A DNA stretch of 64,000 nt, taken from the NCBI GenBank assembly GCA_051362555.1, contig JBPQGU010000016.1, forward strand, positions 2,976,001 through 3,040,000, read 5' to 3'. This DNA is from Lingula anatina. Its lineage: Eukaryota > Animalia > Brachiopoda. The position numbers were made by a program, and so were the translations under genes. The notes under the pieces were generated by a model. It was given only the letters and a program-made list of their open reading frames with translations. It had not been told where the DNA came from and did no database searches. Shown here piece by piece: positions 46,684 through 58,476 of the stretch. Numbering within the stretch: the first letter of the stretch is position 1; every line of letters starts with the position of its first letter.

Positions 46684-48156
46684 ATGAAAACAAATAGAAT
46701 AGAGAAAATTTCTTTAAGACCAGAAGTAAGATATTGAACAACATATAAAAATGAAAATTATGAAGTTAAAGATGTATTAGCAGAATTAATTGATAATTCA
46801 TATTCAAGTTATATAAAAAATAAAAAAATACTTTTTAAAAACAATCCAAATTATAAATTAAAAATTTCAATTTATTTAGATTCTGAAGACAAAAAACTTA
46901 TGGTTTTTGATAATGCATTTGGTATGAATTTAGAGGAACTAAAAAATGGTATTAAGTTACAAAGTAAACAAGATTTAGATAACAAAATTGCATTAAATGA
47001 ACATGGTTTAGGTTTAAAAAAAGCTGCAATTTGAATTGCAGATAAATTTAAAATTGAAACTAAAAAATTTAATTGTAAATATCAAAATAATATTGAAATA
47101 GATCATAATAAATTAAAAGAAAATAAAGATGATAATTTTATTCAAGAACTTGAATATGATGGAAATATTAAAGATTCATTTACAAGAATTACATTTTCTA
47201 ATTTAAATAAAAATATATTTAAAAAATTTGATTTTAAACCTTTTAAAAAATTAATTCATGAAATTAAAGATATTTACAGAAAAATTTTAAAAGATAAAAA
47301 TATTGAATTAAGATTTGCTATAAAAAAATATAATGGATTTGGTTATGCAACATATATTAATTTATCAAATAAAGAAAATTGTGATGATAATTTAGATTTA
47401 ATAGAACCTATTAAAATAGATGAAGAATTTCAATATGAAATAAATAAAGATGAAGAAAAATTTTATAAATGAGATTTTAATCAAGAATTTAAAGTATTAA
47501 ATGATTTTGATAAATGAGAAAAATTTATTATTTATGGAAATATTGGAATAATTAATAATTGATTAAATTGATCAAAAGATAAAATATTTAAACCTGGTAT
47601 TCATTTTTTTAGAAATAATAGAAAAGTATCATATTTTTCACCAAATAAAATATTTAATATAAATGATAGAAACATTGAAAGAATATATGGTGAAATTAAT
47701 ATTTCAGATAATTTTCAAACTATTACAACAAAAAATAAAATTAAATGAATTGGTGATTTAGAAGAACAATTTTTAAAATTTATTAATGAATTTTCAATTG
47801 ATAAAGATTTTTTAAAAATTTTTAAATCTTTAAAAGAATTTAATGAAATTAATAAATATCCAGAAAATAATGAAAAAATTATTTATGAGTTTAAAAAACA
47901 ATTAAAAAATAAAAAAAGTAAATTTAAAGATTTTAAATTAAAAATAAATGATGATTTTGATTATAAAAATCAAAAACCAATTGAAATTGATAAAATAAAA
48001 AAAGAAATTAAAATAAATAGTAAAAATAAAATTTTTAAAAATTTAAGTATAAAAGAAGCATCTTTATTAAATTTTTTTATTTTAAATATTATTGAAAAAA
48101 TAAAAGAAACAAATGATGAAGAATTTTTGAAAAAATTTTTAGAAATAATTAAATAA
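46684..48156 (+). CDS. GHKL (MORC/MutL-like, HATPase_c_3) ATPase, copy 1
   Basis: LAELIDNS, DNAFGM, LNEHGLGLKKA, FTRITF; 490 aa. Confidence 0.88.
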
Positions 48157-48158
48157 AA

Positions 48159-49433
48159 ATGAATATTAAATTACTTGAAGGAGAATTTTTTAAAAATTTT
48201 AAAGAAAAAAATTCAAATAAATATAGCAATTTGGTTTTAGATAGTATTTTTTTGAATTCTAAAAAAGTAATTAATAAAGGAACTTCTTTGGATTTTAATA
48301 ATAATTTAAAATTTCAAAATAAATCTGGAATTATTGTTGGAAAAATTCAAAGTGGTAAAACTTTAAATTTTATAGGTTTATCATTTTTAGCATTAGATAA
48401 TAATTGTGATATTGTAATTATTTTAACTGGAACAGATAATAAGTTACAAAGTCAAACATTTAAAAGAATTAATGATTATTTTAAGAATTGAAATAGTAGT
48501 TTAGATTTTAATAGAACTGAATTTTTAATAAAAACAACAAAAGAATTAAAAACTTTTAATAAAAATGACCTTGAATTATTAAACTTAAAAATTGAAAATA
48601 AAAAATTAAAATTATTTATTGTTTCATTAAAAAATACAACACATTTAAAAAGAATAATTCATTTTTTAAATACAAGTAATTGTAATTTTAAAAATAAAAA
48701 CATTTTAATTATTGATGATGAAGCAGATTTAGCAAGTTTAGATGGTAATGTAAGAAAAAGAGAAAACAATGAATATATTCTTAAAACAAAAATTAATAAA
48801 CAAATTTCAGATGGTATTTTAAAAAAAATAAATTCATATTTTTATTTATCTGTTACAGCAACACCATATATACATTATTTATTAGAAGAATCTGATTCTT
48901 TAAAACCTGATTTTATTGAAATTTTAAAACCATCAAATGAATATTTTGGTTTAAAAGATTTTTTAAATAAAGAAAACAATTGTATTAAATTAATAAAATA
49001 TAATAGTGTAGATAATATATTAAAACATTCTTTTTTACCTAATTCATTAAAAAGCGCTATTTCTTTTTTTATTGTTTATAGTTATTTTTATTTAAAATTT
49101 TTTAAAAATAAAAAAAGAACAGAAATGATAATAAATGTTGCAATAAAAATTTTAGATCATGAAAAGATTAAAGAAATAATTCAAGAACAATTTTTTGATA
49201 AATATAAAGATTTTGCAATGAATTTAATTTATAAAAATTTAGATGAAAAAACATATAAATATAAAGAATCATTTTTAGAATTAAAAAATATTTTTAAAGA
49301 ACCATTAGATGAAATTAAAAGAATTAAAAATATAACTTTTAATGAAAAAGAAATTATTTTAAATTTATCTAAATTTTTATTAAATAGATTAAGTAATCCA
49401 ATTATAATTAATAGTAAATCAGATGATTTAGAA

Positions 49434-49469
<36 letters not shown>

Positions 49470-55305: not shown

Positions 55306-55477
55306 AGCAAATAATATAAACTTTTAAATAATATTTTAAAAATGGTTTTAAATTTATGTTCTTTATTCTTATTAAAAATTAAATAAATAAAATTATAAAT
55401 ATTTTTTTTATTTTTTTAAAATTTATGCCATATAATGTAAAAAATTGTTAAAATGTAGTTATATTAATAAAAATTTA

Positions 55478-56950
55478 ATGGAAAAAACAAGATCAGAAAA
55501 AATATCATTAAGACCACAACTTAAATATTGAATTACATATAAAAATGAAAATTATGATGTAAAAGATGTATTAGCTGAATTAATTGATAATTCATATTCT
55601 AGTTATATAAAAAATAAAAAAATACTTTTTGAAAATAATCCAAATTATAAATTAAAAATTTCAATTTATTTAGATCCAAATTTAAGTGAACTTATGGTTA
55701 TAGATAATGCATTTGGTATGAATTTTGAAGAATTAAAAAATGGTATCAAATTACAAAGTAAACAAGATTTAAATAAAAATATTTCATTAAATGAACATGG
55801 ATTAGGTTTAAAAAAAGCTTCAATTTGAATTGCAGATAAATTTAAAGTTGAAACTAAAAAATTTAATTCTAAATCTAAAAATGTAATTGAAGTTGATAGT
55901 AAAAATTTAAAAAATAATATTGATGAATATGTTATTGATGAATTTGAATATGATAGAAATATTAATGATTCATTTACAAGAATTACATTAATGAATGTAA
56001 ATAAAACTATATTTAAAATATTTGATTTTAAAAGTTGTAAAAAATTGATTCATGGTATTAAAGATGTTTATAGAAAAATTTTAAAAAAAGAAAAAATTGA
56101 ATTAAGATTTGCAAAAAAACAATATGATCGTAATGGTTATTTAGAATATGTTAATTTATTAAATAAAAATAATTGTAATGCAAAATTAGATTTAATTACA
56201 CCTATTAAAATGGATGAAGAGTTAAAATATGCATTTAATATAGATGAAGAAAAACTTTATAAATGAAATTTTAATAAAGAATTTGAAGTTTTAAATGATT
56301 CTAACAAACAAGAAAAATTTAATATTAATGGAACTATTGGTATATTAGAAGAAACAGTTACTAATTTTAAAAATAAAATATTTATACCTGGTTTTCATTT
56401 TTTTAGAAATGATAGAAAGATTTCATATTTTTTAAATAAAAATGTTTTTAAAAAAACAAATAAAAGTATTGAAAGAATATATTGTGAAATTAATATTTCA
56501 GATAATTTTGAAACTATTACAACAAAGAATAGAATTAAATGAATTGGTGATTTAAAAGAACAATTTATAAAATATATTAATGATTTTTGTATTTCAAATA
56601 ATATTTTTAATTTTTGTAGTTCTTTAAATATTAAAAATAAAGAAGAAGAAAAAAATAAAAATCAAACAAAGAAAATAAATGAATTTTCTAAAAAAATACA
56701 AGAAATTAAAATTAATGAATATAAAGATTTTAAAGTTAAAGTAAATGATTTTGATTTAAATAGTAAACCAATAGAAATTGATAATATAAATAAAGAAATT
56801 AAAATTGCAACAAAAAATGAAATTTTCCAAAATTATAAAAATACAAAAGATTTAAATTTATTAATAGAATTTCTTTTTAAGATAATTAAAAAAATTAAAA
56901 AAACCAATGATAAAAAATTTTTAAATAAATTTTTAGAAATAATTAAATAA
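55478..56950 (+). CDS. GHKL (MORC/MutL-like) ATPase, copy 2
   Basis: Paralog of 46684-48156 with the same length (1473 bp); LAELIDNS, DNAFGM, LNEHGLGLKKA. Confidence 0.88.
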
Positions 56951-56982
56951 ATATTAAATAAAATTATTTATAATTCTTTGCT

Positions 56983-58476
56983 ATGAATAATAATTTTTTA
57001 AATAATACATTTATATTTAAAGGTTTTAATAGTCAAAAAAATGATTATTTTTATGCAATAGGTAAATTAAGAAAAGATTTTAAATTTTTAATTTTAAAAA
57101 ATAGTTGAACAGGATTTAAAAATTATGAAAATATTGATGAAAATGATATAAAGTTTAAATTATTAAATCAATTTTTAAATAATAATTTAATAATTAAAGA
57201 TTTTAATAATAATAGATATTTGTTTAAAGAAGATGTTTTATTAAATACATGTTCTTTAGCAGCAAAATTTATTTTTGGTGATTCAAGTTATAAATTAAAT
57301 GGTTTTAAAAGATGAAAAGATAAAGAAACAGATATTTATTTAAGTTTTTTTGTTAAAAAAAGTATAAAAGAAAATATTAAACAAGATACAAATAATTTTT
57401 CAAATAAAAATATTAAAAAACCTAAAAAAACATTTTCTAAAAAAACATTTTTTAATAATTATTTTTTTATAAAAGAAAAAGAATTGAATATTAAATTAAA
57501 GTTTTTTTATAAAGATTTAAGTTATTTTTTACCATTATCTAAAGAATATGAATATAAATGTTTTAATATTTTAAGAAATTCAAAATCAAAAAATATTAAA
57601 AGAAAAATTAGAAATATACTTTTAAAAAGTAATATAAAACTAGTTATTTCTATTTGTAAAAAATTTTCTACTAATAATATTACATTTGAAGATTTAAAAA
57701 AAGATGGTGAGTTAGGTTTACTTAAATCTATTGATAAATTTGATTATAAAAGAGGTTTTAGATTTTCTACATTTGCAACTTGATGAATAAGACAAGCAGT
57801 TACAAGATCAATTGCAGATAAAGATAGAATTATAAGAATTCCAGTTCATATGTTGGAATCATATAGAAAATTATTTGCAATTAAAAAAAGATTGATAAAA
57901 GAAAATAATGAAAAACCAGAATATAAAGAAATTCAAAAATTAATGGGCAATAATTTTTCTATTGAAAAAATTAGAAAAATTGAAAAACAGAGTCCATTAA
58001 ATGAAATTATTGTAAATAATATTGAATTTGATAAATATTGTATTATTAACAAACATATTAGTATAGATAAACACATTAATAAAATAAATTTTTTTAATGT
58101 ATTTGAAAAAATGATTAAACAATTCTTAACAATTAAAGAACAAAAAATAATTAGATTTAGATTAGGTAAACCGCCAGTTACAATAAATGATTTATTAGAA
58201 CTTGTTGAAAATTCAAGATCAATTAAAAGATTAAGACTTTCAAAAGAATGAAATGAAATTAAAACATCAGATAAATTAACTGATGTTATTTTAACATTAG
58301 ATAAAAAAGACCCTTTGTTTAAAGAAATTAGTAAATATGAATTTAAACCATTAACATTAGATAAAACATCTAAAAAATTAAGATTAAAAAGAGAACGTGT
58401 TAGACAAATAGAAACAAAGGCATATAAAAAACTTAAAAATCATAGAAAATGACTTTATGATTTTGTTTTTGATTAA
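56983..58476 (+). CDS. DUF4357-sigma70 (RpoD-like) fusion protein
   Basis: N-terminal ~110 aa near-identical to DUF4357 domain A of 50379; then NIKLVISICKKF, DKFDYKRGFRFSTFATWWIRQAVTRSIAD..RIIRIPVHM, region 4 LTL...RERVRQIETKA. Confidence 0.85.

What the first reader, a model, noticed from the sequence alone, without database searches (positions are those of the whole stretch)
46684..58476. Candidate new defence system: twin GHKL ATPases + Z1 + tandem DUF4357 + DUF4357-sigma70 (Mza-like variant)
Seen: two equal-length paralogous MORC/MutL-type ATPases, both intact, each heading an operon: ATPase1-Z1-DUF4357(A+B) and ATPase2-DUF4357(A)-sigma70, with an OLD nuclease between them. Established: the Mza system combines an ankyrin-sigma70 protein, a GHKL ATPase, Z1, DUF4420 and AIPR. 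Here DUF4420, AIPR and ankyrin are not seen and DUF4357 occupies both the post-Z1 slot and the sigma N-terminus. Inference: a sub-functionalised duplication in which a modified-DNA reader links a Z1 translocase arm and a transcriptional arm, possibly using the OLD or HNH enzymes as nuclease.
Basis: partly seen in the sequence, partly recalled or inferred. Interest (0 to 1): 0.88.

Follow-up and report, generated by a model that had tools for sequence, protein, structure and literature searches.

The report
Duplicated restriction locus with spare sigma
In a small Mycoplasma-like bacterium, a known type of predicted DNA-restriction machine (an ATPase, a DNA motor and a likely switchable methylase nearby) has been partly duplicated in place, and the duplicate carries a predicted DNA-binding domain fused to a fast-evolving spare copy of the cell's main sigma factor; it is not an Mza system.

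Summary
The genes are real under code 4, but this is not Mza. The ATPases score 19 bits on MzaB, against 167-422 for Mza-like ones, and no DUF4420 or AIPR lies in the window. ATPase1-Z1 belongs to the known predicted C5-methylase/GHKL/DEAD-Z1 restriction family. Its likely cognate methylase, split by an (AG)20 tract, and an HNH lie 4.3 kb upstream. That matches an HNH-GHKL-Z1 layout with this methylase nearby in 8 of 16 Mollicute loci. ATPase2-DUF4357-sigma is a local duplicate (80% DNA identity) that lacks Z1, with decayed third copies between. The sigma is a copy of the lineage's housekeeping RpoD with a branch about 12 times longer, altered core-binding residues and a lost sigma finger. The fusion is bridged in runs from two other studies, and its frame stays open. 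None of 132 related loci has two ATPases, a sigma or OLD. The scan noted GHKL+sigma pairs on other DNA, unchecked. Verdict: a lineage-specific variant; the chimeric sigma is the interesting part.

The parts
36994..37929 (+). DUF4357(B-type)-HNH protein; a local paralogue of the DUF4357 and HNH domains
   Evidence: Pfam HNH_2; 38% identity to DUF4357-B and 46% to HNH 41318; iterated DUF4357 profile E 1.7e-22
40078..41318 (+). C5 cytosine methyltransferase of the subfamily that accompanies GHKL-Z1 operons, split into two frames by an (AG)20 tract at 40605-40644; likely phase-variable, out of frame here
   Evidence: 44% identity to the methylase beside GHKL-Z1 in L001; 37 full-length hits at E<1e-43 in the GTDB loci against >=5e-29 for other C5 methylases
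41318..42358 (+). HNH endonuclease whose start overlaps the methylase stop (TAATG); likely the nuclease of the system
   Evidence: Pfam HNH_2 E 1.6e-12; junction; HNH-domain similarity to HNHs in Mollicute GHKL-Z1 loci
46684..48156 (+). GHKL (paraMORC-type) ATPase 1, 490 aa, motifs intact
   Evidence: Pfam HATPase_c_3 E 5.7e-16; tree; motifs
48159..50372 (+). DEAD-Z1 helicase-like motor, 737 aa, all motifs intact; (AAT)12 poly-Asn tract at 49434-49469
   Evidence: Pfam Z1 E 2e-28; alignment A3
50379..51179 (+). Tandem DUF4357 (A+B), predicted RAMA-like DNA-binding domains, in the slot usually held by DUF4420
   Evidence: AlphaFold model of repeat A, pLDDT 80; best fold match MPND 7ydt, Z 5.2, rmsd 3.5, 65 aligned
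51232..51861 (+). Basic ORF of unknown family
   Evidence: no hit in Pfam, PADLOC, NCBIfam or PHROGs
51905..52498 (+). Decayed partial copy of the OLD gene (internal stop, truncated)
   Evidence: 89.7% DNA identity to 54275-54905; dN/dS 1.03; stop shown
52497..52979 (+). Decayed copy of the DUF4357 A-end/B repeat (internal stop)
   Evidence: 82% DNA identity to 50695-51204
53118..53255 (+). Relic of a third GHKL ATPase 5' end
   Evidence: tblastn 61% over 41-46 aa; blastn 52999-53305 vs 55390-55693
53248..55305 (+). OLD-like ABC-ATPase/TOPRIM nuclease, 685 aa; likely an independent island gene
   Evidence: no OLD match in 132 related loci (single-sequence profile)
55478..56950 (+). GHKL ATPase 2, in-paralogue of ATPase 1, followed by no Z1 (about 20 nt after its stop weakly resemble the Z1 start)
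   Evidence: (sister pair, support 100)
56983..58476 (+). Chimeric gene: DUF4357-A copy (aa 1-128) + linker + diverged duplicate of the lineage's RpoD (regions 1.2-4)
   Evidence: 75% aa identity to repeat A; model; junction bridged in runs X3 and X5

Best explanation
The locus is a Mollicute defence island whose core is likely a methylase/HNH/GHKL/DEAD-Z1 restriction-modification system, partly duplicated in place to give a second ATPase without Z1 and a DUF4357 domain fused to a diverged spare copy of the host RpoD. Shown: gene content, intact motifs, family placement, the duplication, the host origin of the sigma, and the decayed copies. Inferred mechanism: the C5 methylase marks host sites. 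The DEAD-Z1 motor translocates on DNA, as shown for CglI. The GHKL dimer acts as an ATP-driven clamp, and the HNH cuts unmarked DNA. The (AG)20 tract would switch the methylase and its translationally coupled HNH on and off; it is out of frame in this assembly. The tandem DUF4357 likely serves as a DNA-binding accessory where DUF4420 was lost. The ATPase2 and DUF4357-sigma pair is kept as open frames but drifts fast. It most likely acts as a promoter- or DNA-binding accessory rather than a working sigma, because its core-binding residues are changed and its sigma finger is lost.
For: GTDB loci: 54 of 80 Z1 loci carry this GHKL family, and 36 of those 54 have both the methylase and DUF4420. Mollicutes: 16 of 20 wide regions have GHKL+Z1; 13 of the 16 have the same methylase, only 2 have DUF4420, and 8 have an HNH directly upstream of the ATPase. 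The window methylase belongs to that subfamily at 38-46% identity. The ATPases are sister in-paralogues, with 80-90% DNA identity among the local copies. The sigma is sister to RpoD orthologue P0001 (support 99; branches 1.08 vs 0.086) and changes 22 of 99 family-invariant residues. In region 2 it changes about 11 of 49, against 0-2 in each of 8 orthologues. The nearest genome matches are single rpoD genes next to dnaG. A second sigma region-4 copy at single-copy depth exists in the same organism. No stops arose in 229 missense differences between the ATPases (15-30 expected) or in 87 sigma changes (about 6-11 expected).
Against: The methylase-HNH pair is 4.3 kb from ATPase1, with unrelated genes between. 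The window HNH matches the Mollicute HNHs only in the HNH domain and not the main ATPase-adjacent cluster. The window ATPases and Z1 sit on long branches with no starred nearest relative. ATPase dN/dS is 0.83 (0.61 in the GHKL domain, 0.98 in the C-half; simple NG86 on AT-rich DNA), near neutral. The decayed DUF4357 copy also carries fewer stops than expected (1 vs 5-10), so open frames show past selection, not necessarily current function. Listed strain differences are 6 synonymous to 9 non-synonymous, from 17 variant rows picked out of 40 shown of 239. No function was tested, and no whole genome is held.
Confidence: 0.6

Rival explanations
1. Birth-and-death debris. The methylase/nuclease link is already broken, ATPase1-Z1 is an orphan pair, and the second ATPase and the sigma fusion are recent accidents of recombination that are on their way out and have no role.
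For: Decayed copies of OLD, DUF4357 and ATPase sit between the units. dN/dS is 0.6-1.0. A strain variant hits a conserved RpoD proline (P312Q). The methylase is out of frame. Orphan GHKL-Z1 pairs occur in Mollicutes (3 of 16, plus L017 and L025). The arrangement is in none of 132 loci.
Against: No stop arose across hundreds of amino-acid changes, and all catalytic motifs are intact. The fusion is in frame in strains from other studies, including one with a 15-base in-frame deletion in the linker. The model folds all sigma domains confidently except region 3.2.
Confidence: 0.2
2. A new integrated two-arm system. DUF4357 senses foreign DNA, ATPase1-Z1 with OLD destroys it, and ATPase2 with the DUF4357-sigma alters transcription or acts as a decoy for phage proteins that target sigma region 4.
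For: Both arms start with an intact GHKL and share the DUF4357-A domain. Sigma region 4 stays close to the other sigma copy (16 differences in 167 nt; 22/26 and 27/35 identity to P0001 in 4.1 and 4.2), while core-binding residues changed. Melting and -10 residues (W267, W268, Q271, T274, R275) and RERVRQ are kept. Unchecked scan notes report GHKL+sigma pairs elsewhere.
Against: No second lineage has it: 0 of 132 loci hold two ATPases or a sigma. Extra RpoD-like copies in 9 Mycoplasmatales genomes are not next to GHKL, Z1 or DUF4357. OLD was duplicated separately and is not seen in related loci.
Confidence: 0.15
3. A divergent Mza system in which DUF4357 replaces ankyrin and DUF4420.
For: The top NCBIfam/PADLOC hit of the sigma is MzaA, and the ATPases and Z1 hit MzaB and MzaC weakly.
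Against: All scores are far below cut-off (191/800, 19/850, 105/1500). Mza-like ATPases in the same test score 167-422 and form a separate clade. The sigma nests in host RpoD (MzaA itself was not in that tree). There is no DUF4420 or AIPR in the window.
Confidence: 0.04

Closest known systems
Predicted MORC/paraMORC-SFII(Z1) restriction-modification operons (Iyer, Abhiman, Aravind 2008, PMC2292703; the Z1/DUF4420/cytosine-methylase system of PMC9523054)
   Same: A GHKL ATPase directly followed by the SFII-Z1 helicase with a near-match to the DThhQXuRhFG motif (DVLLQRARWLG), and a cytosine methylase of the same subfamily nearby.
   Different: No RE-fold (DUF4420) gene after Z1; a tandem DUF4357 lies there instead. 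The methylase is split by (AG)20, coupled to an HNH and 5.4 kb upstream of the ATPase. There is a second ATPase and a sigma fusion.
CglI / NgoAVII restriction enzymes (DEAD-Z1 motor; PMC5861437)
   Same: The same DEAD-Z1 motor motifs (Q-variant Walker A, DDEAD, motif V, QxxR motif VI), paired with a C5 methylase.
   Different: No PLD/B3 R-subunit was found here. The passages I read on CglI mention no GHKL partner.
MzaABCDE anti-phage system
   Same: A GHKL, a Z1 protein and a sigma-70-family protein occur in one neighbourhood.
   Different: Different GHKL and Z1 clades; no DUF4420, AIPR or ankyrin; the sigma is a recent copy of the host RpoD and lies downstream of a second ATPase. The resemblance is likely convergent.
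Housekeeping RpoD of the nearest Mycoplasmatales family (G018, G029, G038, G047, G055; P0001-P0003)
   Same: Regions 2-4 and the family's region-4 insertion; 58% identity to P0001.
   Different: The N-terminus is replaced by DUF4357; it is not next to dnaG; 22 of 99 invariant residues are changed; region 3.2 is shortened and degenerate.

Membership tests
Mza | MzaA ankyrin-sigma70 | tested here: not met
NF041931 191 bits vs cut-off 800, with the match limited to the sigma part; no ankyrin in Pfam; nests in host RpoD.
Mza | MzaB-type GHKL ATPase | tested here: not met
   19 bits, against 167-422 for the 8 ATPases of the separate clade
Mza | MzaC-type long Z1 protein | tested here: not met
   105 bits vs 389-661 for two Mza-like Z1 proteins; outside that clade
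Mza | DUF4420 (MzaD) and AIPR (MzaE) | tested here: not met
   Profiles built from related loci find nothing in six frames of the 64-kb window; the rest of the genome is not held
Mza | Anti-phage activity | not testable with these tools
   needs a phage challenge
MORC/paraMORC-SFII(Z1) RM operon (Iyer 2008, type 3) | GHKL ATPase with intact motifs adjacent to SFII-Z1 | tested here: met
   2-nt gap between the genes; motifs; same ATPase family as the methylase-linked clade
MORC/paraMORC-SFII(Z1) RM operon (Iyer 2008, type 3) | RE-fold nuclease gene (DUF4420) in the operon | tested here: not met
   so this is filed as a variant that works like the family, not as a canonical member
MORC/paraMORC-SFII(Z1) RM operon (Iyer 2008, type 3) | Linked cytosine methylase | tested here: inconclusive
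   Right subfamily, but out of frame and 5.4 kb upstream
CglI/NgoAVII-type RM | DEAD-Z1 motor motifs | tested here: met
CglI/NgoAVII-type RM | PLD-nuclease/B3 R-subunit | tested here: not met
   No such Pfam or PADLOC hit among the window ORFs scanned
Group 1 housekeeping sigma70 | Conserved regions 2-4 and position next to dnaG | tested here: not met
   22 of 99 invariant residues changed and region 3.2 lost; relatives' rpoD follows dnaG; TIGR02393 178 vs cut-off 354
RAMA domain | RAMA fold | tested here: inconclusive
   Top of 48,161 chains is MPND 7ydt, Z 5.2, rmsd 3.5, 65 aligned; CcrM C-terminus Z 4.4; Z under 8 may be a common arrangement; Foldseek found nothing
RAMA domain | Reads modified DNA | not testable with these tools
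   Predicted in PMC4738411; not seen for MPND in PMC9963953

The most novel reading that the evidence does not exclude
A genome-reduced Mollicute has copied its own primary sigma factor into a defence operon and fused it to a DNA-sensing domain. It keeps region 4 nearly host-like while disabling normal initiation, so that it acts as an integrated decoy or transcription switch coupled to a dedicated GHKL ATPase. This would be an independent reinvention of the unexplained sigma-GHKL pairing of Mza.
Probability: 0.15. Interest if true: 0.78.

Novelty: new variant of a known kind. Interest (0 to 1): 0.45.

Why it matters
The core family is widespread but uncharacterised, and the Mollicute layout with an HNH in place of DUF4420 gives a compact version to test. 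It is seen in 8 of 16 loci here and was not found in my paper searches. The chimeric sigma is a young gene with a traceable parent. If it is functional, it offers a minimal model for why sigma factors recur beside GHKL ATPases in defence loci, which is an open question for Mza. If it is not, the locus is a clear example of how duplication in a defence island can mimic a 'new system'.

Tried and rejected
No whole genome is held, so genome-wide absence could not be tested. The ATPase word-search gave 1 hit; the profile search gave 1807, and that profile includes outside protein P0121. The metagenome scan with ATPase1 alone found no relative. Z1 was not found in the 5 genomes of the nearest family, although 4 of them have a DUF4357. 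No RNA holder was listed, and one RNA run, 6% read, gave only 8 poor partial reads; this is no evidence either way. Strain data cover only 55400-58560, so the (AG)n tract and unit 1 were not examined in reads. No complex prediction and no Atlas look-up were obtained, so DUF4357-Z1 binding stays open. Promoter-like sites were no more frequent than in shuffles (204 vs 232). Foldseek gave no match for DUF4357. OLD had no PDB sequence hit. The ATPase tree is the quick one, since the careful run did not finish. The paper search for MzaA/MzaB gave irrelevant hits, and Gao 2020 is not held. I rejected the idea that the fusion is the sole housekeeping sigma: a second region-4 copy exists, and 3 of its 5 non-synonymous differences match P0001. 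I rejected misassembly of the fusion: it is bridged by contigs in two other studies.
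Full report
Context. The window is chromosomal DNA of an AT-rich, code-4 Mollicute. It is 12-25% GC per 2-kb bin, with dnaA/dnaN at 3-5.5 kb and housekeeping genes to about 31 kb. No whole genome is held. From about 37 kb on it is a defence-type island with HNH genes, two methylases, a Panacea antitoxin and the finding.

Observation. Every gene named is present and open under table 4, with the domains claimed. Both ATPases are 490 aa from their ATGs and keep the same four GHKL motifs; Z1 and OLD keep theirs. 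A self-comparison shows a duplication mosaic. ATPase1 vs ATPase2 is 80.5% identical in DNA, and DUF4357-A vs the N-terminus of the sigma gene is 83%. Between 51.9 and 53.3 kb lie broken third copies of OLD (90%), DUF4357 (82%) and the ATPase 5' end. About 20 bases after the ATPase2 stop weakly resemble the start of Z1. This fits loss of Z1 from the duplicate but is weak evidence in such AT-rich DNA.

Not Mza. The NCBIfam scores are 191/800 (MzaA), 19/850 (MzaB) and 105/1500 (MzaC). Among ATPases from related loci, 8 form a separate clade that scores 167-422 bits on MzaB. Nine others tested from the other clade score 29 bits or less. The window pair lies in that other clade as sister in-paralogues on a long branch. 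The Z1 tree also places the window protein outside the Mza-like clade, with no starred nearest relative. Profiles for DUF4420 and AIPR built from related loci find nothing in six frames of the window. My picture of Mza comes from NCBIfam names, one section of PMC9523054 and scan notes; Gao 2020 was not held.

What the core is. In GTDB, 54 of 80 have the GHKL with Z1. Of those 54, 37 have a specific C5 methylase, 49 have DUF4420, 36 have both and 8 have AIPR. In metagenomes 19 of 23 have both. This is the predicted restriction-modification operon of Iyer et al. 2008 (PMC2292703; parts 1-2 of 4 read). The same core genes are described in PMC9523054 (section 11), and the motor is characterised in CglI (PMC5861437; passages). 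In Mollicutes the nuclease slot differs. Of 16 regions with GHKL+Z1, 13 have the methylase, 2 have DUF4420, 8 have an HNH directly upstream of the ATPase, 2 have a NOV_C protein there, 3 are orphans and 1 has the methylase between ATPase and Z1. The window has the same parts. A methylase of that subfamily lies at 40078-41318 (38-46% identity), split by (AG)20, with an HNH overlapping its stop, then 4.3 kb of other genes, then ATPase1-Z1. AG-tract methylases are known in Mycoplasma (PMC3498834; search listing only). The link is inferred: the gap is real, and the window HNH resembles the related HNHs only in the HNH domain.

DUF4357. It is found in 45 of 399 Mycoplasmatales genomes, often tandem. 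The literature passages tie it to GIY-YIG nucleases, GmrSD and McrB (PMC4619093, PMC11090510; passages; the DUF4357 search listed 4 papers). The model of repeat A is confident. Its best structural match is the MPND RAMA domain, at a modest Z 5.2. RAMA was proposed as an m6A reader (PMC4738411; passages), but one structural study found sequence- and 6mA-independent dsDNA binding (PMC9963953; abstract and section 2.2). DNA binding is therefore likely, and modification reading is unsupported. DUF4357 occurred in 2 of 132 loci, in neither case adjacent to a GHKL-Z1 pair.

The sigma. Its closest proteins are RpoD orthologues (P0001 58%) sharing a Mollicute region-4 insertion. In 398 Mycoplasmatales genomes the best matches are five single-copy rpoD genes. 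In four of them dnaG lies directly upstream; in the fifth it is not on the short contig stretch. The window's GluRS has its best E-value in that family too, though the margin is small. In a tree the fusion is sister to P0001 (99), with branch lengths 1.08 vs 0.086. It changes 22 of 99 family-invariant residues, including RGL to NNI and QEG to KDG in region 2, and region 3.2 is 6/40 identical to P0001 with a 6-residue deletion. That the QE pair binds core and that region 3.2 is the sigma finger is recalled knowledge. The tryptophan dyad, -10 residues and RERVRQ are kept. The model folds the DUF domain and sigma 2, 3 and 4 well, with a disordered linker and region 3.2, and it matches sigmaA structures. 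Contigs of three runs from studies other than that of the best holder cover the unit. X3 and X5 bridge both the ATPase2-fusion and the DUF-sigma junctions, X5 with a 15-base in-frame linker deletion. Each run shows a second version of 58190-58356, in X3 at single-copy depth, so another sigma copy, likely the housekeeping one, exists. Thirteen of 388 matching genomes have 2-3 sigma matches. In the 9 examined, none is near GHKL, Z1 or DUF4357.

Selection. dN/dS is 0.83 for the ATPases, 0.59 for DUF4357-A, and 1.03 and 1.12 for the decayed copies. No stop arose in 229 ATPase missense differences (15-30 expected) or in 87 sigma changes polarised to the window (about 6-11 expected). The decayed DUF copy also has a stop deficit, so this shows past retention rather than present function. 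Listed strain differences were 6 synonymous and 9 non-synonymous (17 variant rows picked from 40 shown of 239). The picture is fast amino-acid turnover with preserved frames.

Verdict. Shown: anatomy, family, duplication, host origin of the sigma, and presence in several strains. Inferred: restriction activity, the phase switch, the role of DUF4357, and any role of unit 2. None of 132 loci has two ATPases, a sigma or OLD, so a conserved new system is not supported. The locus is a lineage-specific variant of a known predicted RM type, plus one unusual chimeric gene. My searches found no description of the HNH layout or the fusion, but they cover open-access papers only, and no supplements were read; those of PMC2292703 may list such operons. 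The scan's unchecked notes report GHKL+sigma pairs on other DNA; nothing matched this locus by sequence (looked up as DNA).

Noticed in passing
window 59708-60895 (+) and 60892-62778 (-): An N6/N4 methylase converges with a 628-aa protein that weakly hits PD-Lambda-5_A (E 3e-4); possibly a PD-Lambda-5-like pair (its composition is recalled).
   Followed up: no
L017:6291-9947; L166, L167, L172, L025: Orphan GHKL-Z1 pairs without methylase or nuclease in Mycoplasmoides-type genomes. Four of them have short Z1 branches (0.08-0.15), and the L017 ATPase has lost its ELIDN motif. Possibly a domesticated pair.
   Followed up: partly
L157-L164, L168, L174: Mollicute GHKL-Z1 loci with the cognate methylase and an HNH or NOV_C nuclease in place of DUF4420; an apparently undescribed, compact variant.
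   Followed up: partly
L177-L186 (G181, G112, G009, G088, G331, G340, G275, G080, G004): Extra RpoD-like genes in Mycoplasmatales, often in tandem; 13 of 388 matching genomes have 2-3 matches.
   Followed up: partly
window 34241-35041 (+): Membrane-anchored ORF with an HNH-x(n)-PS-x-AD stretch that recalls a JAB/MPN motif (recalled; no NCBIfam or Pfam hit).
   Followed up: no
window 44593-45186 (-): Panacea/SocA antitoxin (Pfam E 4e-11) in the gap between the HNH and ATPase1; its neighbour at 44089-44556 has hydrophobic segments and could be its toxin.
   Followed up: no
window 38484-38862: Frameshifted relic copy of the HNH domain of the 36994 gene.
   Followed up: partly
window 49434-49469: (AAT)12 tract encoding poly-Asn in a variable loop of Z1.
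   Followed up: no
window 18389-20143 and 13838-15274: Membrane-anchored proteins with internal tandem duplications (82% over 764 nt), no Pfam hit.
   Followed up: no
window 31756-33783 (-): C39-peptidase ABC transporter, of the kind used for peptide export.
   Followed up: no
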